A DNA stretch of 64,000 bases from an uncultured Bacilli bacterium (GCA_934167695.1 CAKPLP010000005.1:22955-86954), one strand, 5' to 3'. Shown: positions 4,622 through 58,939, counted from the stretch's first letter. Made by a program: numbers and translations. The notes: generated from the sequence alone by a model not told the origin.

Positions 4622-4630
4622 TTTTCCTCC

Positions 4631-4712
4631 AAAAAAAAGTGCACATAAGTTAAATGTGTTAAGGCTGCTATCTTCCAATCCTGACCTGTTTCCACAATAA
4701 CTTATTGCACAA
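4631..4712 (-). ncRNA. ffs: signal recognition particle RNA (small 4.5S-type SRP RNA)
   Basis: The minus-strand sequence GUGCAAUAAGUUAUUGUGGAAACAGGUCAGGAUUGGAAGAUAGCAGCCUUAACACAUUUAACUUAUGUGCAC-U8 carries the conserved domain IV: CAGGUCAGG ... GGAA tetraloop ... AGCAGCC. The 5' and 3' ends pair, and a U-tract follows. Confidence 0.6.
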
Positions 4713-4759
4713 ATTTATTTTATACTACTTTTAATTTTTTTTCAACAAAAAAAGTTAAT

Positions 4760-46528: not shown

Positions 46529-47047
46529 ATGAAAAAAGCAATAATTATTTTAAGTATAATAACAGGAATATTTGTAACAAATGACTTAACAAAAGAAAAG
46601 GTAGTTATACCAAAAGAATCTATAAGATTTAGAGTAATTGCAAACTCTAATACAGAAGCTGATCAAGCATTAAAAATTAAGGTAAGAAACTCTTTAGATA
46701 AAGATCTAGAAAAGATATTAGAAAATCAAAATAATATTCAAAAAGCTAAACAGTCTATCAAAAATAATTTACCATTATTAGAACAAACAATAAAAAATAC
46801 CCTAAAAGAAAATAATTCTAATATTAAATATACCATCAATTATGGAAATAATTACTTTCCTAGTAAATCATATAAAGGAGTAGTATATAACGCTGGTAAT
46901 TATGAATCATTAGTAGTAAAACTAGGAAAAGCAGAAGGAAATAACTTCTGGTGTGTATTATTTCCACCACTATGCTTAGTAGATGAAAATACAACAGATA
47001 CAGAATATCATATTCTAGTAAAAGACCTCTTGAAAAAATATTTTTAG
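46529..47047 (+). CDS. spoIIR: stage II sporulation protein R
   Basis: A signal peptide, then IRFRVIANSNTEADQALKIKVRNSL and a C-terminal WCVLFPPLC, matching SpoIIR conservation. Its position next to prmC matches B. subtilis. Confidence 0.65.
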   Translation: MKKAIIILSIITGIFVTNDLTKEKVVIPKESIRFRVIANSNTEADQALKIKVRNSLDKDLEKILENQNNIQKAKQSIKNNLPLLEQTIKNTLKENNSNIKYTINYGNNYFPSKSYKGVVYNAGNYESLVVKLGKAEGNNFWCVLFPPLCLVDENTTDTEYHILVKDLLKKYF

Positions 47048-51381: not shown

Positions 51382-51468
51382 CTTGCAAAATAAAACAAAA
51401 CTTGTTATACTAATAACGCTATTAATTACTATGATTAATATTTAATCATGGCGGAAGGAGAGATAAAA

Positions 51469-52460: not shown

Positions 52461-53147
52461 ATGAAAAAGAAATTAAAATTAAAATCCTATGTTTTACCAA
52501 GCTTATATGTATGCCTTTTTGTTGCAACCTTTTATATTACTCTAGTAGTTTCAAATATGTTAACTAAAAAAACTCCAATTCAAGAAAATAAAACTCAAAA
52601 TATAGATTATGTATCAGAAACTATTTTAGATAACGAACAACCAGTAATTAATGAAACACTTAAAATGCAAAAACCATATACAAATGAAAGTGTTACTATA
52701 GGTAAATACTTCTATGATTATCAAGGTGAAAGTGATAAGCAAGAAAACTCTATAACATATCACGATAATACATATATTCAAAACTCTGGAGTTGACTATA
52801 TTTTAGAAGAAAGTTTTGATGTAGTAAGTATTTTATCAGGAACAGTAACATCAGTAACAACAGATGACCTATTAGGAAAAGTAGTAGAAATAAAACATGA
52901 TAATAACTATGTAAGTGTTTATCAAAGTTTAAGTACAGTAAATGTAAAAAAGGGTGATACAGTAACACAGGGACAAGTAATAGGAAAAAGTGGTACAAAT
53001 GAAATTGACAAAGATATGGGAAACCATTTACATTTTGAACTTTATATAAAAGGTCAAGTTGTAGATCCAACACTATATTTAGACAAAGAAATTTCAACAA
53101 CTAATGATACAACTACTGACAATACTACAAAAAAAGAAGGAGAGTAA
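52461..53147 (+). CDS. membrane-anchored M23/LytM-domain protein, SpoIIQ-like
   Basis: An N-terminal TM helix and a C-terminal LytM domain with an HxH motif (NHLHFELY). Its position upstream of spoIIID suggests SpoIIQ. Confidence 0.45.
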   Translation: MKKKLKLKSYVLPSLYVCLFVATFYITLVVSNMLTKKTPIQENKTQNIDYVSETILDNEQPVINETLKMQKPYTNESVTIGKYFYDYQGESDKQENSITYHDNTYIQNSGVDYILEESFDVVSILSGTVTSVTTDDLLGKVVEIKHDNNYVSVYQSLSTVNVKKGDTVTQGQVIGKSGTNEIDKDMGNHLHFELYIKGQVVDPTLYLDKEISTTNDTTTDNTTKKEGE

Positions 53148-53205: not shown

Positions 53206-53457
53206 ATGAATAAGATGATTGCAAGAAGAGTTATAGAAGAAGCTAATATAATAATAAATACTGAAATAACTTTAAGGGAGTTAGCAAAACACCTTGGAGT
53301 TAGTAAAAGTACAATACATAAAGATATGCAAGAAAGATTAATCCAACTAGATAAAGGTCTATATAATAATGTAAAAAAAGTCTTTAAAAAACACTTAGAT
53401 ACAAGATATTATCTAGGTGGAGAATCAACTAGAAAAAAATATCAAAAAACATTATAA
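53206..53457 (+). CDS. spoIIID: stage III sporulation protein D (DNA-binding)
   Basis: RELAKHLGVSKSTIHKDMQERL ... YLGGESTRKKY aligns with B. subtilis SpoIIID (IAKEFGVSKSTVHKDLTERL ... LRGGEATKLKY). Confidence 0.85.
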   Translation: MNKMIARRVIEEANIIINTEITLRELAKHLGVSKSTIHKDMQERLIQLDKGLYNNVKKVFKKHLDTRYYLGGESTRKKYQKTL

Positions 53458-55699: not shown

Positions 55700-55776
55700 T
55701 TTTTTTTTTGTTGATTTTTAACACAAAATTGGAAAATTATGGTAAAATATTAAACTTATATGGGAGGTGAGGTAAA

Positions 55777-56511
55777 ATGATTGATTTTGTAATCTGTGAT
55801 GATAATAAAGAATTCACAATATTACTAAGAAAAAAAGTAAAACAATTTATGAGTAAATATCCAGAATTAGAATGTCAATATCATATTTTCTCTGGATATG
55901 GTAAAGAGTTTGAAAGAATAGTAGAATCTGAAAATACTTTTAAAGTATACTTTCTAGATATAGAAACTAAAAGAGGTTCTGGATTAGATGCAACCAGAAT
56001 GATCAGAGAAAAGTATGACGATTGGAACTCTATAATTATGATTGTAACATCACATGAAGAGTTCAGATATGAAGCATTAAGTAACAGATTATATTTATTT
56101 GATTTTCTAAATAAATTGAACAACTTTGACTCCAACTTAGAAGAAGACTTAAAGAACGTCTTAAAACAATATACCAGAAATAGTAAAAGTATTACTTTAG
56201 AATACGATAGAGCAATTCATAGAGTAGAACTAAGAGATATTATTTATGTAGAAAAACAAATAGATAGTAAGAAATGCATTGTAGTAACCACTTATGGTAT
56301 CAAATATGTACAATGTTCATTAAATGATATTTACAATCAACTAGATGGAGATTTCATGAAAGCAAGTAGAAGTCTAATAGTAAATATCAAAAAGATAAGA
56401 GAATATAACTCAAAGACAAATACCATTTACTTTGTAAATGAATACAAATCTAACCTAGTATCAAGAGAAAGCAAGAAGGAGTTGATGAATCGTGTTAGAA
56501 ATAATAACTAA
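55777..56511 (+). CDS. LytTR-family response regulator (AgrA-like)
   Basis: An N-terminal receiver domain (phospho-acceptor near FLDIE) and a C-terminal LytTR DNA-binding domain. Confidence 0.8.
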   Translation: MIDFVICDDNKEFTILLRKKVKQFMSKYPELECQYHIFSGYGKEFERIVESENTFKVYFLDIETKRGSGLDATRMIREKYDDWNSIIMIVTSHEEFRYEALSNRLYLFDFLNKLNNFDSNLEEDLKNVLKQYTRNSKSITLEYDRAIHRVELRDIIYVEKQIDSKKCIVVTTYGIKYVQCSLNDIYNQLDGDFMKASRSLIVNIKKIREYNSKTNTIYFVNEYKSNLVSRESKKELMNRVRNNN

Positions 56512-57826
56512 AACATTTTGTTTTGTATTAATTACAATATTATACTTCTGTATAATGAAAGGAACTCTTAATTCAAATGTAAAAATATTAAGTAAAAGAA
56601 ATTTCTTATTGCTGTTTATATTAATTATCATCGTCGCTGTATCATATACAACAGAATATTCTATACAAGCTGTAATCGTAAGAGTTATAGCAAATATTAT
56701 AGTATTCAAATTAATATTTGATGAGTCAATATATAAAACTACAGTTATATTAACATTAGCTATGATTATAAATATATTAGGAGATATTATAAACTCTGCT
56801 ATAATAATGAATTTTTATACATTAGAAGAAGTTAGAAGTCTTCCTATCGCTATGTTAATATCTAATGTTATGACAGTGTTATATTCATACATTATTTTTA
56901 GAATTAAATTTGTATCAGATAAACTAAAATTAGTAGCAAAAAATTTAAATGATAACAACATAGTTTCATCTATAATAATTTGCGCATCTATTTTTATTTT
57001 AGCAATATGTACTTTAGCAAATTTAGGTGACATTTTTACACTTAATATGTCATATTTTATAAATGTTTTAATAGTAATCGTTTTTGTAATAGTATTATTA
57101 ATATTTTTTGTTGACAATAATAAATATCAAAATTTAGTAAACCAATATGATTCACTATTTAAATATATTCAAACATTTGAAAGTAGTATGGATAAAATTA
57201 ATTTAAGTAACCATGAGTTCAAGAATGAGTTAATAATGTTAAAAAGTTACATTAAAGATGATCAAAAAGAAAAATCATTAAATATAATAAATGACATAAT
57301 TGCTGAGAATAAGAAGCAAGATAGTGCAATTTTAACTAGTTTGAAAAATTTACCAAAAGGTGGTATTAAAGGTTTATTATATTATAAAATTATTGTAGCA
57401 ATGGATAATAAATTAAAAGTCAGTCTAGATGTAAGTTCAACTATTAAAGGAAAACTAAACAACTTAGATATAGAACAATCAAAATTAATTTGTAATTTAA
57501 TAGGAATATATTTGGATAATGCGATAGAGGCATCACATGAAAGTGGTAAAAAATTAATTGGTATAGAAATATACACATTAGAAGATAAAGTTGAATTTGT
57601 TTTTTCTAATACCTTCAAAGATCAAGAAATAGATTTAGACAAGGTAGATAAAAATGGATATACAACAAAAGGAAAGAATCATGGAAGAGGTCGCTATTTA
57701 GCAAAGAGATTAATTGAAAAAAATGATTGGATTTCCTCTGAAACCAAAATAATGAACAACCTATATATTCAAAAGATTATAATAGATAAAAACAAATTAA
57801 TTAAAAGTGAAGAAAAAACAAAATAA
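56492..57826 (+). CDS. HPK10-family sensor histidine kinase (AgrC-like)
   Basis: A multi-TM N-terminus, an H-box SNHEFKN and a GHKL ATPase (GKNHGRGRYL). It overlaps the response-regulator gene. Confidence 0.75.
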   Translation: MLEIITKTFCFVLITILYFCIMKGTLNSNVKILSKRNFLLLFILIIIVAVSYTTEYSIQAVIVRVIANIIVFKLIFDESIYKTTVILTLAMIINILGDIINSAIIMNFYTLEEVRSLPIAMLISNVMTVLYSYIIFRIKFVSDKLKLVAKNLNDNNIVSSIIICASIFILAICTLANLGDIFTLNMSYFINVLIVIVFVIVLLIFFVDNNKYQNLVNQYDSLFKYIQTFESSMDKINLSNHEFKNELIMLKSYIKDDQKEKSLNIINDIIAENKKQDSAILTSLKNLPKGGIKGLLYYKIIVAMDNKLKVSLDVSSTIKGKLNNLDIEQSKLICNLIGIYLDNAIEASHESGKKLIGIEIYTLEDKVEFVFSNTFKDQEIDLDKVDKNGYTTKGKNHGRGRYLAKRLIEKNDWISSETKIMNNLYIQKIIIDKNKLIKSEEKTK

Positions 57827-57832
57827 CAATAT

Positions 57833-57869
57833 AAAAATACTATTGGCATAATTAACCAATAGTATTTTT
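57833..57869. terminator. bidirectional rho-independent terminator between the convergent sensor kinase and agrD
   Basis: A perfect 13-bp stem AAAATACTATTGG / CCAATAGTATTTT flanked by A- and T-runs. Confidence 0.7.
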
Positions 57870-57907
57870 ATAACATCAATTATATTTATAATAAGATGAA
57901 TAACATT

Positions 57908-58027
57908 TTAATCAATAAGTGATTCTAATGGCTGAGGTTCATCTGTTAAAAACATTACACACCCCATATTAGCACTTCCAACTATAAGCATTGCAACCAT
58001 TGCTATAAGTCTTGTTAATATCTTCAT
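57908..58027 (-). CDS. agrD: AgrD-like autoinducing peptide precursor (39 aa)
   Basis: Hand translation gives MKILTRLIAMVAMLIVGSANMGCVMFLTDEPQPLESLID. It has an amphipathic leader, a Cys followed by 4-5 hydrophobic residues, and an acidic DE-P tail. A GGAAGGG RBS precedes it, and it lies immediately downstream of agrB. It is not in the ORF track. Confidence 0.6.
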   Translation of the reverse strand: MKILTRLIAMVAMLIVGSANMGCVMFLTDEPQPLESLID

Positions 58028-58055
58028 ACTACCAACATCCCTTCCTATAAATTTA

Positions 58056-58685
58056 CTAAATATCATATTTAATTGATATTAAGCCATTTTTTCTTTTATA
58101 ATTTACATAATTCTTATATGGCTGTTTGAAAACCTTATAAGTTATGGGACTAACCATTACATCTTCCAAGACCACAGCATCGGTTAATAGAAGTGAAAAT
58201 CTATATTCATTTAAAAATAATGCAATAATAGTAAAAATTGTTGCTGTTGATACGGTAATAATTTTTCTAATGACTCTCTTTCTTTTATTAGGAAGAGGTC
58301 TTTTTATTGTGTCAGCGGGTGCATAAAAGAAAAGATATATAGTACCAAGTATTCCCGTTATAAATAAGACATTTTTATTAATATATAAATTTAATAGTAA
58401 AAACGGAAACATTACAAATGATAAAATGGAAACAAGTAAACACTCCCAACTTTTCTTTGCATGAAATCCAAATCCAGTAAATCTAACTATATTAAATAAT
58501 AATAATAAGATTAGCATTTCTTTAAAGATTCCAAATATAAAAGCTAATACAAATATAATAGCTGTTTTAGTGGTTGTTAAGTAAAGTCCCTCGAGTCCAT
58601 ATCTCAATTTCAACGTATCACCTTCATTGATTTTTTGATATTTGGCTATTAAATTAATAGCTCCATCCAAGAACTTCTCTTTCAT
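58056..58685 (-). CDS. agrB: AgrB-like membrane peptidase
   Basis: FGFHAKKSWECLLVSILSF...YAPADTIKRPLPNKRKR aligns with S. aureus AgrB ([23 protein letters not shown]...YAPAATKKKPIPVRLIK), including the catalytic His and Cys. Confidence 0.8.
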   Translation of the reverse strand: MKEKFLDGAINLIAKYQKINEGDTLKLRYGLEGLYLTTTKTAIIFVLAFIFGIFKEMLILLLLFNIVRFTGFGFHAKKSWECLLVSILSFVMFPFLLLNLYINKNVLFITGILGTIYLFFYAPADTIKRPLPNKRKRVIRKIITVSTATIFTIIALFLNEYRFSLLLTDAVVLEDVMVSPITYKVFKQPYKNYVNYKRKNGLISIKYDI

Positions 58686-58939
58686 ACTACCTACCTCACG
58701 AAAGTGATTATATCAGAAAAAAAAGTCGATATTTTTATATTGCTTTTTTAAATAAATTAAGGGTATGAAATTGAAAAAATTCTAAAAATTCGGTAAAAAA
58801 AATGCCAAAAATGCCCTGAAAATTACAATTCGAGGAAATAGGGTTCAAATAACCTAAAAGTTTGGTAAACTGAAATAGCGCACAAACAAAAAAATAGTTT
58901 AGTTAACTAAGCAAAAAGAAGTGAAGGTGAGGTGTATGT

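What the first reader, a model, noticed from the sequence alone, without database searches (positions are those of the whole stretch)
55777..58685. Complete agr-type quorum-sensing locus with convergent architecture and an unannotated 39-aa AgrD
A LytTR response regulator and an HPK10 kinase (H-box SNHEFKN) lie on the plus strand. On the minus strand, AgrB (catalytic His and Cys conserved against S. aureus AgrB) is followed by a hand-found AgrD of 39 aa (MKILTRLIAMVAMLIVGSANMGCVMFLTDEPQPLESLID; putative thiolactone core C-V-M-F-L(T) and an acidic DE-P recognition tail). The two operons converge on a shared perfect 13-bp bidirectional terminator (57833-57869), instead of forming the single agrBDCA operon of staphylococci. 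The order of regulator then kinase is also inverted. The predicted autoinducing peptide sequence is novel.
Basis: partly seen in the sequence, partly recalled or inferred. Interest (0 to 1): 0.65.

Follow-up and report, generated by a model that had tools for sequence, protein, structure and literature searches.

The report
Convergent agr quorum-sensing locus with swappable alleles
This is a real, complete peptide quorum-sensing (agr-type) locus from an uncultured spore-former-type gut bacterium, built as two converging operons, and the same species carries at least four interchangeable signal-plus-receptor versions of it.

Summary
The window encodes agrA (LytTR regulator) and agrC (AgrC-type kinase) on the + strand. 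They converge on agrB and a 39-aa agrD on the - strand, across a perfect 17-bp (not 13-bp) bidirectional terminator. AgrB passes Pfam. AgrD misses every curated HMM, but a profile of 71 orthologues scores it at E=4e-16. The layout and chromosomal position are the same in all 80 related species examined, which are uncultured gut Bacilli. The peptide framework is leader-G-C-X5-(D/E)EP-tail. New here: contigs with 99-100 % identical flanks carry four alleles (CVMFLT, CVFYIC, CVVLLC, CVLFWA). The variable block is sharply bounded at about 56503-57958 and covers the ring, tail, terminator and whole agrC. AgrB, the AgrD leader and AgrA are shared by all alleles. Split agr operons, regulator-first order and 6-residue rings are already published. 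I found no paper describing the convergent cassette layout. No AgrA binding site could be established. Verdict: new variant of a known kind, moderate interest.

The parts
55730..55748 (+). Conserved element TGGAAAATTATGGTAAAAT upstream of agrA. It contains an extended -10 (TGgTAAAAT) and a 10-bp-period repeat. Its role is unknown; it is probably the agrAC promoter.
   Evidence: The consensus AAnTGGAAAAnTATGGTAAAAT is present in nearly all 60 aligned loci. Position read.
55777..56511 (+). agrA: response regulator with a receiver domain (putative phospho-acceptor Asp61) and a LytTR DNA-binding domain.
   Evidence: PF04397 E=2.5e-14 and a weak AgrA equivalog hit. The best solved relative is the LytTR regulator ComE (4cbv), full length, E=1.8e-6, with the Asp aligned. 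The protein is 99-100 % identical among the four alleles.
56492..57826 (+). agrC: AgrC-type (HPK10) sensor histidine kinase. It has about 7 hydrophobic segments in residues 1-207, an H-box SNHEFKN (His241) and a C-terminal ATPase domain.
   Evidence: NCBIfam AgrC model matched over its full length, E=8.6e-25. S. aureus AgrC kinase module 6e52, E=1.2e-16, with His on His. Hydropathy. The sensor half has a median 26 % identity across species, against 42 % for the kinase half.
56503..57958 (.). Hypervariable allele cassette. It covers agrC from about codon 4 to its end, the terminator, and the agrD ring and tail from just after Cys23-Val24.
   Evidence: Nucleotide identity to same-species contigs falls from 99-100 % to 45-76 % inside these bounds and returns to 100 % outside.
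57830..57872 (.). Bidirectional intrinsic terminator shared by the two converging operons: a 17-bp perfect stem and a 9-nt loop, flanked by an A-tract and a T-tract.
   Evidence: dG -20.5 kcal/mol, z -6.3. Symmetric A-stem-T hairpins occur at the same junction in 43 of the 69 loci folded, with unrelated sequences.
57908..58027 (-). agrD: 39-aa autoinducing-peptide precursor MKILTRLIAMVAMLIVGSANMG-C-VMFLT-DEPQPLESLID (leader, predicted ring, follower).
   Evidence: Orthologous ORF in 78 of 78 loci. C, E and P are invariant, and the 5 residues after the Cys are hypervariable. Clade-excluded profile: 52 bits, E=4.3e-16; every other small ORF of the window scores below 3 bits. Ungapped profile alignment to C. 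acetobutylicum AgrD.
58056..58685 (-). agrB: polytopic membrane cysteine endopeptidase/cyclase that processes AgrD (His75, Cys82).
   Evidence: PF04647 E=3.6e-32 and NF002210 E=7e-37. H75 and C82 are invariant.
58087..58092 (-). Homopolymer (A6 on the coding strand) near the agrB 3' end. Its length polymorphism (5, 6 or 8) shifts the frame of the last few codons, giving AgrB of 201, 209 or 202 aa.
   Evidence: Alignment of the four alleles. Protein lengths.
58707..58715 (-). Conserved extended -10 box (TGATATAAT) of the proximal agrB promoter. There is no recognisable -35.
   Evidence: The TGnTATAAT column block is conserved about 25 nt before the ATG across the 81 aligned upstream regions. 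Position read.
58801..58834 (-). Conserved block with a 21-bp-period direct repeat (CTCGAATTGTAAT ... TTTTTGGCATT). It could be an AgrA (LytTR) site, a distal agrB promoter or the csp promoter; this is unresolved.
   Evidence: Mean PWM score at offset +21 is -4.7, against -14.5 +/- 2.4 at other offsets. It is not above chance within the window alone. The csp-promoter reading is weak.

Best explanation
This is a functional agr-type autoinducing-peptide quorum-sensing system made of two converging operons.

Signal production (agrB-agrD, - strand). AgrB, a membrane cysteine peptidase with His75 and Cys82, binds the 39-aa AgrD through its conserved leader and its invariant (D/E)-E-P follower. It removes the follower DEPQPLESLID and closes a thiolactone between Cys23 and the new C-terminus. 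The spacing predicts a 6-residue ring [CVMFLT]. An unidentified peptidase then removes the signal-peptide-like leader. If that cut falls directly before the Cys, the tail-less thiolactone would rearrange to a homodetic cyclic hexapeptide.

Signal detection (agrA-agrC, + strand, translationally coupled). The peptide binds the 7-TM sensor of AgrC. AgrC autophosphorylates on His241 and transfers the phosphate to Asp61 of the LytTR regulator AgrA, which changes transcription.

The shared hairpin stops both converging transcripts.

Within the species, the ring, tail, terminator and whole receptor form one recombining cassette with at least four alleles (pherotypes). AgrB, the leader and AgrA are common to all of them.

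Shown: gene content, the orthology of AgrD, conservation of the layout, catalytic and phospho-acceptor residues, the alleles and their breakpoints.
Inferred: peptide chemistry, autoinduction and target genes.
For: Family assignments:
- AgrB: PF04647 at 3.6e-32. RR: LytTR at 2.5e-14. HK: full-length match to the AgrC model at 8.6e-25.
- The best solved relative of the kinase is S. aureus AgrC, with His aligned. The regulator's best is ComE, with Asp aligned.
- AgrC has about 7 TM segments.
- AgrB H75 and C82 are invariant and align with S. aureus H77 and C84.

AgrD:
- It is present in 78 of 78 loci with invariant C, E and P.
- 54 of 78 orthologues match TIGR04223 at E<=1.
- The clade-excluded profile gives the window peptide 52 bits.
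- Entropy is 1.9-3.2 bits at positions +1 to +5, against 0-0.6 bits at D-E-P. There are 76 distinct cores in 78 species.
- It aligns in register with C. acetobutylicum AgrD, whose AIP is reported as the 6-residue ring [CVLVTL] (PMC12312760 Table 1, PMC4916163).

Conservation of the locus:
- Same convergent layout and same flanks in 80 of 80 species loci.
- Symmetric terminators in 43 of the 69 loci folded.
- The AgrC sensor evolves fastest: 26 % median identity, against 67-81 % for the flanking genes.

Alleles:
- Four alleles with 99-100 % identical flanks and sharp breakpoints.
- Allele lineages are shared across species.
- This is the signature of signal/receptor co-diversification known from staphylococcal agr groups (PMC12312760).
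Against: - There is no expression, peptide or phenotype data.
- The window's own AgrD fails both curated AgrD HMMs.
- AgrC and AgrA score far below the equivalog cutoffs.
- No AgrA binding site could be established, so autoinduction is not shown. The one conserved 21-bp-period repeat lies more than 100 nt upstream of the conserved -10, is not above chance within the window, and has other possible readings.
- The ring size rests on analogy with one clostridial system.
- The organism is uncultured, and 'same species' is inferred only from about 4 kb of near-identical flanks.
Confidence: 0.85

Rival explanations
1. Same system, but the mature signal has the canonical 5-residue thiolactone ring C-V-M-F-L. 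AgrB would cut between Leu27 and Thr28.
For: Five-residue rings are by far the most common in characterised AIPs (PMC12312760, PMC4916163). The +5 residue could be a variable first residue of the follower.
Against: - Position +5 is the most variable column of the whole peptide at 3.15 bits, like the ring positions and unlike the follower.
- The Cys-to-E-P distance is fixed at C-X5-(D/E)EP in 78 of 78 species. It equals that of C. acetobutylicum C-VLVTL-YEP, where a 6-residue ring is reported.
- In staphylococcal precursors recalled from memory (S. epidermidis C-ASYF-DEP), the D-E-P follows the last ring residue directly.
Confidence: 0.25
2. The leader is a lipoprotein (signal peptidase II) signal, and the single Cys is diacylglycerol-modified rather than cyclised, or as well as being cyclised. 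The product would then be a membrane-anchored or lipidated peptide, not a free thiolactone AIP.
For: 71 of 78 orthologous leaders fit the permissive PROSITE lipoprotein pattern ending at the ring Cys. A few hit mollicute lipoprotein-signal models. A 2026 paper reports SPII-type signals on a subset of microbiome AIP precursors and leaves single-Cys cases open (PMC13056109).
Against: - None of the 78 has the canonical L/V/I at -3; Ser is there instead.
- The window's own leader fails even the permissive pattern, with Asn at -3.
- The single Cys sits exactly where AgrB needs it.
- AgrB acts on the cytoplasmic face first, which would block the thiol.
- One sub-clade (L033, L076, L084) has an amphipathic, non-signal-like leader but the same C-X5-EEP.
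Confidence: 0.07
3. The locus is a decaying or non-signalling relic. The small ORF or the kinase would no longer be functional, and the conservation would reflect only linkage to essential neighbours.
For: - The genomes come from host-associated lineages labelled Tenericutes or Mycoplasma in several records.
- One allele lineage carries an agrA nonsense mutation, Q23*.
- The AgrB 3' end is frame-variable.
Against: - The ORFs are intact, with catalytic residues, in about 80 species.
- The framework is under strong purifying selection while the core is hypervariable.
- Four intact, highly divergent receptor alleles are maintained in one species. Decay would give frameshifts and loss, not co-varying intact signal/receptor pairs.
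Confidence: 0.03
4. The tandem AAAAATGCC x2 repeat (58798-58815) is the LytTR/AgrA recognition site that drives agrB autoinduction.
For: It is an exact 9-bp direct repeat in the agrB upstream region. It overlaps a conserved block.
Against: - The copies are adjacent (9-bp period), not separated by about 12 bp as in known LytTR sites (established knowledge for AgrA and ComE).
- The repeat is absent from the closest relatives, which have TTTTTTGGTAA-like sequence there.
- What is conserved is a different pair, GAATTGTAA and TTTTGGCAT, 21 bp apart.
Confidence: 0.05

Closest known systems
Staphylococcus aureus agrBDCA (prototype agr system)
   Same: It has the same four components: an AgrB peptidase with a His/Cys pair, a small AgrD with leader, Cys core and acidic Pro-containing follower, a polytopic HPK10 kinase AgrC, and a LytTR regulator AgrA. 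It also has an intraspecific hypervariable region that defines specificity groups (PMC12312760).
   Different: - Here there are two converging operons instead of one agrBDCA operon, with the regulator before the kinase.
- There is no RNAIII-like divergent transcript.
- The predicted ring has 6 residues.
- The leader is signal-peptide-like rather than amphipathic.
- The variable block excludes AgrB and the AgrD leader but includes the entire AgrC (kinase half only 51-58 % identical between alleles 1, 2 and 4). In S. aureus it is described as lying within agrB, agrD and agrC (PMC12312760); from memory, it covers part of agrB and the sensor half of agrC.
Clostridium acetobutylicum agrBD + agrCA (CA_C0078-0081)
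   Same: It has separate agrBD and agrCA transcription units. Its AgrD has C-X5-xEP spacing (GK-C-VLVTL-YEP-KMPEEL), and a 6-residue ring is reported or predicted. The host is a spore former, and agr influences sporulation there (PMC10301443 and its supplement, PMC12312760).
   Different: - The operons are written agrBD then agrCA, kinase first, whereas here agrA-agrC converges on agrB-agrD. From memory they are co-directional; the papers read here do not state the orientation.
- There is no LanM-like CA_C0082 neighbour here.
- The leader type differs: hydrophilic or amphipathic in C. acetobutylicum, hydrophobic and signal-like here.
- Sequence similarity is only at profile level (hhalign E=0.001).
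Clostridioides difficile R20291 agr2 (agrA2-agrC2-agrD2-agrB2)
   Same: The physical order is regulator, kinase, precursor, peptidase (PMC4453554).
   Different: It is treated there as one polar, co-directional unit. AgrD2 uses Ser and a 5-residue ring (NSA[SSWVA], PMC12312760). It is an accessory locus present only in some strains, whereas here the locus sits at a fixed core-genome position.
Ruminiclostridium cellulolyticum Rc-AIP1
   Same: It has a six-residue core that starts at the Cys (C-WFWSY), often with Trp near the Cys as in this family (W at +2 in 49 of 78). It controls sporulation (PMC8251862).
   Different: The mature signal was shown there to be a homodetic cyclopeptide formed by an S-to-N acyl shift after the leader is removed directly before the Cys. 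Whether that happens here is unknown.

Membership tests
agr-type AIP quorum sensing | AgrB-family membrane peptidase (PF04647) with the catalytic His and Cys | tested here: met
   PF04647 at 111.7 bits against a cutoff of 23. H75 and C82 are invariant in 16 relatives.
agr-type AIP quorum sensing | Small AgrD precursor encoded next to agrB, with a Cys or Ser followed by a short hydrophobic core and an acidic, Pro-containing follower | tested here: met
   The ORF lies 28 nt downstream of agrB. The framework G-C-X5-(D/E)EP is conserved in 78 of 78 loci. Clade-excluded profile: 52 bits, E=4.3e-16.
agr-type AIP quorum sensing | The window's AgrD reaches the curated AgrD models (TIGR04223 cutoff 19 bits; PF05931) | tested here: not met
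   There is no hit at E<=10 for the window peptide or the other three alleles. Of five orthologues from other species scanned individually, four scored 12-29.5 bits, two of them above the cutoff, and one gave no hit. 54 of 78 match at E<=1. I read this as a limit of model sensitivity, not as evidence against homology.
agr-type AIP quorum sensing | AgrC-type (HPK10) kinase: polytopic N-terminal sensor, H-box His, HATPase_c_5-type ATPase | tested here: met
   Full-length alignment to NF046015 (87.8 bits, far below the 500-bit staphylococcal equivalog cutoff). 6e52 AgrC at E=1.2e-16 with His241 aligned. About 7 TM segments. PF14501 is precomputed for the identical protein.
agr-type AIP quorum sensing | LytTR-family response regulator with a phospho-acceptor Asp | tested here: met
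   PF04397 at 53.7 bits against a cutoff of 22.6. Full-length alignment to ComE 4cbv, with Asp61 in the conserved YFLDI context.
agr-type AIP quorum sensing | Single agrBDCA operon | tested here: not met
   agrB-agrD are on the - strand and agrA-agrC on the + strand, converging on a terminator. This is a feature of the staphylococcal form and is not required of agr systems in general (PMC10301443, PMC12312760).
agr-type AIP quorum sensing | Divergent RNAIII effector transcript | tested here: not met
   No Rfam family is hit in or beside the locus. The divergent neighbour is a csp gene. RNAIII is also absent from clostridial and Listeria agr systems (PMC12312760).
agr-type AIP quorum sensing | AgrA boxes (imperfect 9-bp direct repeats about 12 bp apart) upstream of the agr promoter, giving autoinduction | tested here: inconclusive
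   A conserved 21-bp-period repeat exists. But its PWM carries only about 9 bits, it is not above shuffles within the window, it lies more than 100 nt from the conserved -10, and it has alternative promoter readings.
agr-type AIP quorum sensing | Intraspecific signal/receptor polymorphism (specificity groups) | tested here: met
   Four alleles of the AgrD core plus AgrC occur between 99-100 % identical flanks.
agr-type AIP quorum sensing | A secreted cyclic (thio)lactone or rearranged cyclopeptide that activates the cognate kinase | not testable with these tools
   This needs mass spectrometry and reporter assays. Predicted masses are given.

The most novel reading that the evidence does not exclude
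In this lineage of uncultured gut Bacilli, agr is an ancestral locus fixed in the core genome. Its convergent layout packages the ring, follower, terminator and entire receptor as one exchangeable pherotype cassette. The recombination breakpoints are pinned at the Cys codon of agrD and at the agrA/agrC overlap, and allele lineages persist or move across species boundaries. In addition, the strongly conserved A-S-x-G|C junction of the signal-like leader is the maturation site. The secreted signal would then be a tail-less six-residue ring that rearranges to a homodetic cyclic hexapeptide (or, less likely, is lipidated), not a classical tailed thiolactone.
Probability: 0.25. Interest if true: 0.65.

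Novelty: new variant of a known kind. Interest (0 to 1): 0.45.

Why it matters
Peptide quorum sensing of the agr type has mostly been studied in pathogens. This locus shows it as a conserved feature at a fixed position in the genomes of a large group of uncultured gut Bacilli. At least 196 species-level genomes encode a related AgrB, and all 80 loci examined share the layout. At least one human-gut species carries four signal/receptor pherotypes.

This gives concrete, synthesisable peptide predictions that could be used to probe, manipulate or help cultivate these organisms, and to test strain-level interference in the gut. The sharply bounded cassette offers a natural experiment. AgrB and the leader are constant while the ring and receptor vary, so it can show what AgrB recognises and how specificity evolves. 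It is also a test case for the open question of signal-peptidase-II-like leaders on single-Cys AIP precursors (PMC13056109).

On the practical side, curated AgrD HMMs miss this species' peptide entirely, so surveys that rely on them will under-count such systems.

Tried and rejected
1. PF05931 and TIGR04223 on the window peptide and on the 52-aa form gave no hit. I used orthology and a clade-excluded profile instead.
2. AgrB against PDB sequences found no relative.
3. A PWM of the conserved half-site scanned across the window: the agrB-upstream pair scores 11.8, against a best-of-shuffle mean of 17.6. The site therefore cannot be called from the window alone, and no regulon could be inferred.
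4. The conserved block read as the csp sigma-A promoter: median 7 of 12 hexamer matches, and it coincides with the best promoter-like site in only 4 of 81 loci. This is not convincing, but it is not excluded.
5. The promoter scan of the region found fewer sites than shuffles (27 against 31.2), so single-sequence promoter calls are uninformative in this 26 % GC DNA.
6. Rfam, at both gathering and E-value thresholds, found nothing RNAIII-like. There is only a non-significant cspA thermoregulator hit at E=0.98.
7. Steiner et al. 2012 (PMC3273008) is not held. The supplements of PMC11953309 and PMC13056109 are not held. I could therefore not check whether this peptide family is among their listed AIP families.
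8. The apparent 1.3-1.6 kb 'insertions' in L006 and L008 turned out to be exact agrC duplicates, not new genes.
9. Structure prediction and fold search were not used, because sequence evidence already fixed the families and the tools cannot model an AgrB-AgrD complex.


Full report
**1. What is in the sequence**

- A 244-aa response regulator lies at 55777-56511 on the + strand.
- A 444-aa kinase follows at 56492-57826. It starts at a GTG that overlaps the regulator gene by 20 nt.
- On the - strand there is a 209-aa protein at 58056-58685.
- It is followed 28 nt later by a 39-aa ORF at 57908-58027.

Between the two stop codons lies a perfect 17-bp inverted repeat (57830-57846 and 57856-57872, 9-nt loop), flanked by an A-tract and a T-tract. 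It folds at -20.5 kcal/mol, with z = -6.3 against shuffles. The terminator scan also finds it.

**2. Family assignments**
- The 209-aa protein is an AgrB: PF04647 at 111.7 bits and NF002210 at E=7e-37. His75 and Cys82 are invariant among 16 relatives.
- The regulator has a LytTR domain (PF04397, E=2.5e-14). It aligns over its full length with the LytTR regulator ComE, with Asp61 on the phospho-acceptor.
- The kinase aligns end to end with NCBIfam's AgrC model (E=8.6e-25, far below the staphylococcal equivalog cutoff). Its best solved relative is the S. aureus AgrC kinase module, with His241 of SNHEFKN on the AgrC H-box His. Its first 207 residues contain about seven hydrophobic segments.
- AgrB has no relative among solved structures by sequence.

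**3. Is the 39-aa ORF AgrD?**

No curated model recognises it, so I tested it by comparison.

Pattern-plus-tblastn scanning with an AgrB alignment found relatives in 196 species-representative genomes, and the 80 best loci were fetched. They are uncultured gut 'Bacilli', 'Tenericutes' or 'Mycoplasma sp. CAG' MAGs, plus Candidatus Faecimonas, which NCBI places in Bacilli incertae sedis.

In 78 of the 78 loci that have DNA after agrB, there is a small ORF with the framework M-K-K-R, hydrophobic stretch, A-S-x-G-C, five residues, (D/E)-E-P, seven to nine residues, D.
- C, E and P are invariant.
- The five residues after the Cys are the most variable columns (1.9-3.2 bits), and D-E-P is almost fixed. 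There are 76 different cores in 78 species.
- 54 of the 78 match TIGR04223 at E<=1, with a best of 1.5e-8, and 3 match Pfam AgrD. In a spot check of five orthologues from other species, two exceeded the 19-bit cutoff, two fell below it and one gave no hit.
- A profile built from the 71 orthologues outside the window's clade scores the window peptide at 52 bits (E=4.3e-16). No other small ORF of the 64-kb window exceeds 3 bits.

The ORF is therefore AgrD. Standard annotation would miss it, although gene callers already predict it, unnamed, on six public contigs.

**4. Ring size and maturation**

The Cys-to-E-P distance is fixed at C-X5-(D/E)EP. C. acetobutylicum AgrD reads GK-C-VLVTL-YEP-KMPEEL (supplement of PMC10301443). 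Its AIP is listed as the 6-residue ring [CVLVTL] (PMC12312760 Table 1; PMC4916163). The family profile aligns to it without gaps, with Cys on Cys and E-P on E-P.

Position +5 is also the most variable column. I put this at roughly 0.6-0.65 against 0.25.

The leader looks like a secretion signal. 71 of 78 leaders fit the permissive PROSITE lipoprotein pattern ending at the ring Cys. None has L/V/I at -3, and the window's leader fails the pattern with Asn at -3. A 2026 paper notes SPII-type signals on some microbiome AIP precursors and leaves single-Cys cases open (PMC13056109).

If the leader is cut at the conserved G|C junction, the tail-less ring would be expected to rearrange to a homodetic cyclopeptide, as shown for R. 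cellulolyticum C-WFWSY (PMC8251862).

**5. Architecture and its conservation**

All 80 species loci have the same order and orientation: SecA-HPF-Csp, then agrB-agrD, then agrC-agrA converging on them, then a GT4 (MraY/TagO-like) gene and MreB/Mbl. Where the contig ends before agrC or agrA, the part present agrees. The locus is thus vertically inherited and sits at a fixed core-genome position.

The junction between the two stop codons is tight: the median is 21 nt and some pairs overlap. It holds a symmetric A-stem-loop-stem-T hairpin of unrelated sequence in 43 of the 69 loci folded. The bidirectional terminator is therefore conserved as a structure.

Across species, the flanking proteins are 67-81 % identical (medians). 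AgrB is about 50 %, the AgrA domains 42-47 %, the AgrC kinase half 42 % and the AgrC sensor half only 26 %.

**6. Four alleles in one species (new)**

Contigs recovered through near-identical AgrB and AgrA proteins have flanks that are 99-100 % identical to the window at nucleotide level. The flanking proteins SecA, HPF, Csp and GT4 are 99.4-100 % identical, and full-length AgrA is 98.8-100 %. Yet the contigs carry different AgrD cores and AgrC proteins:

| Allele | Loci | Ring core | AgrC length |
|---|---|---|---|
| 1 | window, L001, L090 | C-VMFLT | 444 aa |
| 2 | L085-L087 | C-VFYIC | 432 aa |
| 3 | L088, L089 | C-VVLLC | 449 aa |
| 4 | L092 | C-VLFWA | 434 aa |

AgrC identity between alleles 1, 2 and 4 is 41-45 % (sensor about 31 %, kinase 51-58 %). 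Allele 3 is a mosaic of allele 1, at 83 % overall.

The variable block is sharply bounded. Identity runs through agrB, the spacer and the whole AgrD leader, and it breaks just after the Cys23-Val24 codons (about 57958). On the other side it resumes at about codon 4 of agrC, inside the agrA/agrC overlap (about 56503).

Because the operons converge, the ring, follower, terminator and complete receptor form one contiguous cassette, flanked by invariant agrB-plus-leader on one side and agrA on the other. In S. aureus the hypervariable region is described as lying within agrB, agrD and agrC (PMC12312760); from memory, it covers part of agrB and the sensor half of agrC.

The window's AgrC is closer to AgrC of other species (62-63 %, L006 and L008) than to alleles 2 and 4 of its own species. 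The core CVLFWA recurs in another species, L007. Both facts indicate old trans-species polymorphism or exchange of cassettes between species. 'Same species' rests on about 4 kb of flanks only.

**7. Regulatory DNA**

Upstream of agrB, nearly all species share an extended -10 (TGnTATAAT; window 58715 to 58707) with no -35.

Further upstream there is a conserved block with a direct repeat of 21-bp period. In the window this is GAATTGTAA at 58831 to 58823 and TTTTGGCAT at 58810 to 58802. The second copy is near-perfect in some species. The mean PWM score at +21 is -4.7, against -14.5 +/- 2.4 elsewhere. This fits LytTR geometry (established knowledge for AgrA). There are several cautions:
- The PWM carries only about 9 bits.
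- The window's pair is not above shuffles.
- The block lies more than 100 nt from the -10.
- It can also be read as a distal agrB promoter or, weakly, as the csp promoter.

I therefore leave autoinduction unproven.

Upstream of agrA, TGGAAAAnTATGGTAAAAT is conserved almost universally. Its role is unknown.

**8. Comparison with known systems and verdict**

Already published:
- split agrBD/agrCA operons and predicted 6-residue rings in clostridia (PMC10301443, PMC12312760);
- regulator-first order A-C-D-B in C. difficile agr2 (PMC4453554);
- absence of RNAIII outside staphylococci (PMC12312760).

Three searches of the paper library found no description of a convergent agrBD/agrAC arrangement, or of agr in these lineages. 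That is absence of evidence within one library, not proof that it is undescribed.

The locus is a genuine agr system. Every defining protein feature that was tested is met. The features tied to the staphylococcal form (single operon, RNAIII) are not met.

I rate it a new variant of a known kind. The interest is moderate and comes mainly from three things: the conservation across the clade, the cassette-like pherotype polymorphism, and the testable peptide predictions.

Noticed in passing
Related loci, about 100 nt upstream of agrB (e.g. L014, L026, L049). Homologous window position 58789-58795.: Perfect Spo0A-type '0A boxes' (TGNCGAA; consensus from my own knowledge) occur upstream of agrB in 59 of 81 loci, against 4.3 expected from shuffles. 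25 loci have two boxes exactly 10 bp apart (TTTTTCGACAAAATTCGACA), and a few have the box in inverted orientation. The window and its closest relatives lack them; the window has only TACCGAA, one mismatch. This suggests a Spo0A-agr link in most of the clade that the window's sub-clade has lost.
   Followed up: partly
L085 and L087 (allele 2 contigs), agrA codon 23. Homologous to window 55843-55845.: agrA carries a nonsense mutation, CAA to TAA (Q23*), in some contigs of the same species. The truncated protein is seen on 3 contigs. L086, with the same allele, is intact. This could be a natural agr-defective variant, as is common in S. aureus.
   Followed up: partly
window 58087-58092: A homopolymer-length polymorphism (5, 6 or 8 bases) near the 3' end of agrB shifts the frame of the last codons. 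The result is AgrB of 201 aa (…KRKMA), 209 aa (window) or 202 aa. Most family members end at about 199 aa, so the window's 209-aa form is the extended one. Only the non-conserved C-terminal tail is affected.
   Followed up: partly
L006 5800-8661 and L008 5788-8426. Similar gaps in L049 and L022.: Some species' loci contain two tandem, identical copies of agrC. This is either a very recent duplication or an assembly loop caused by allele polymorphism.
   Followed up: partly
window 55730-55748, and upstream of agrA in L005-L084: The element TGGAAAAnTATGGTAAAAT is almost invariant directly upstream of agrA across the clade. It shares the TGGTAA core with the second half-site upstream of agrB. It could be just an extended -10 promoter or a regulator binding site.
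   Followed up: no
AgrD orthologues (alignment A2): 32 of 78 precursors have a second Cys, most often at +15 in the follower (…SLCD, 20 of 78). Alleles 2 and 3 of the window's species have a Cys as the last ring residue (CVFYIC, CVVLLC). A small sub-clade (L033, L076, L084) has an amphipathic, staphylococcus-like leader (MLNLFA…) with A-C-X5-(D/E)EPECPKSL.
   Followed up: no
window 46529-47047, 52461-53147, 53206-53457: Sporulation genes flank the locus: SpoIIR (PF09551), a SpoIIQ-like M23 peptidase, and SpoIIID next to an Mbl/MreB homologue. Despite the 'Tenericutes/Mycoplasma' labels on related MAGs, the host is a spore-former-type Bacillota with 26 % GC.
   Followed up: partly
window 58872-58900 (csp side of the agrB-csp intergenic region): A conserved motif (TTTGCTTGTGCGCATATCTAGTGTATCAAA in relatives, read on the agrB strand) lies between block 1 and the csp start. 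It is probably the csp promoter or 5'-UTR. The only Rfam hit nearby is a non-significant cspA thermoregulator match at E=0.98.
   Followed up: no
window 4624-4720 (-) and 51429-51460 (+): Rfam gathering-level hits elsewhere in the window: bacterial small SRP RNA and an L31-Firmicutes ribosomal protein leader.
   Followed up: no
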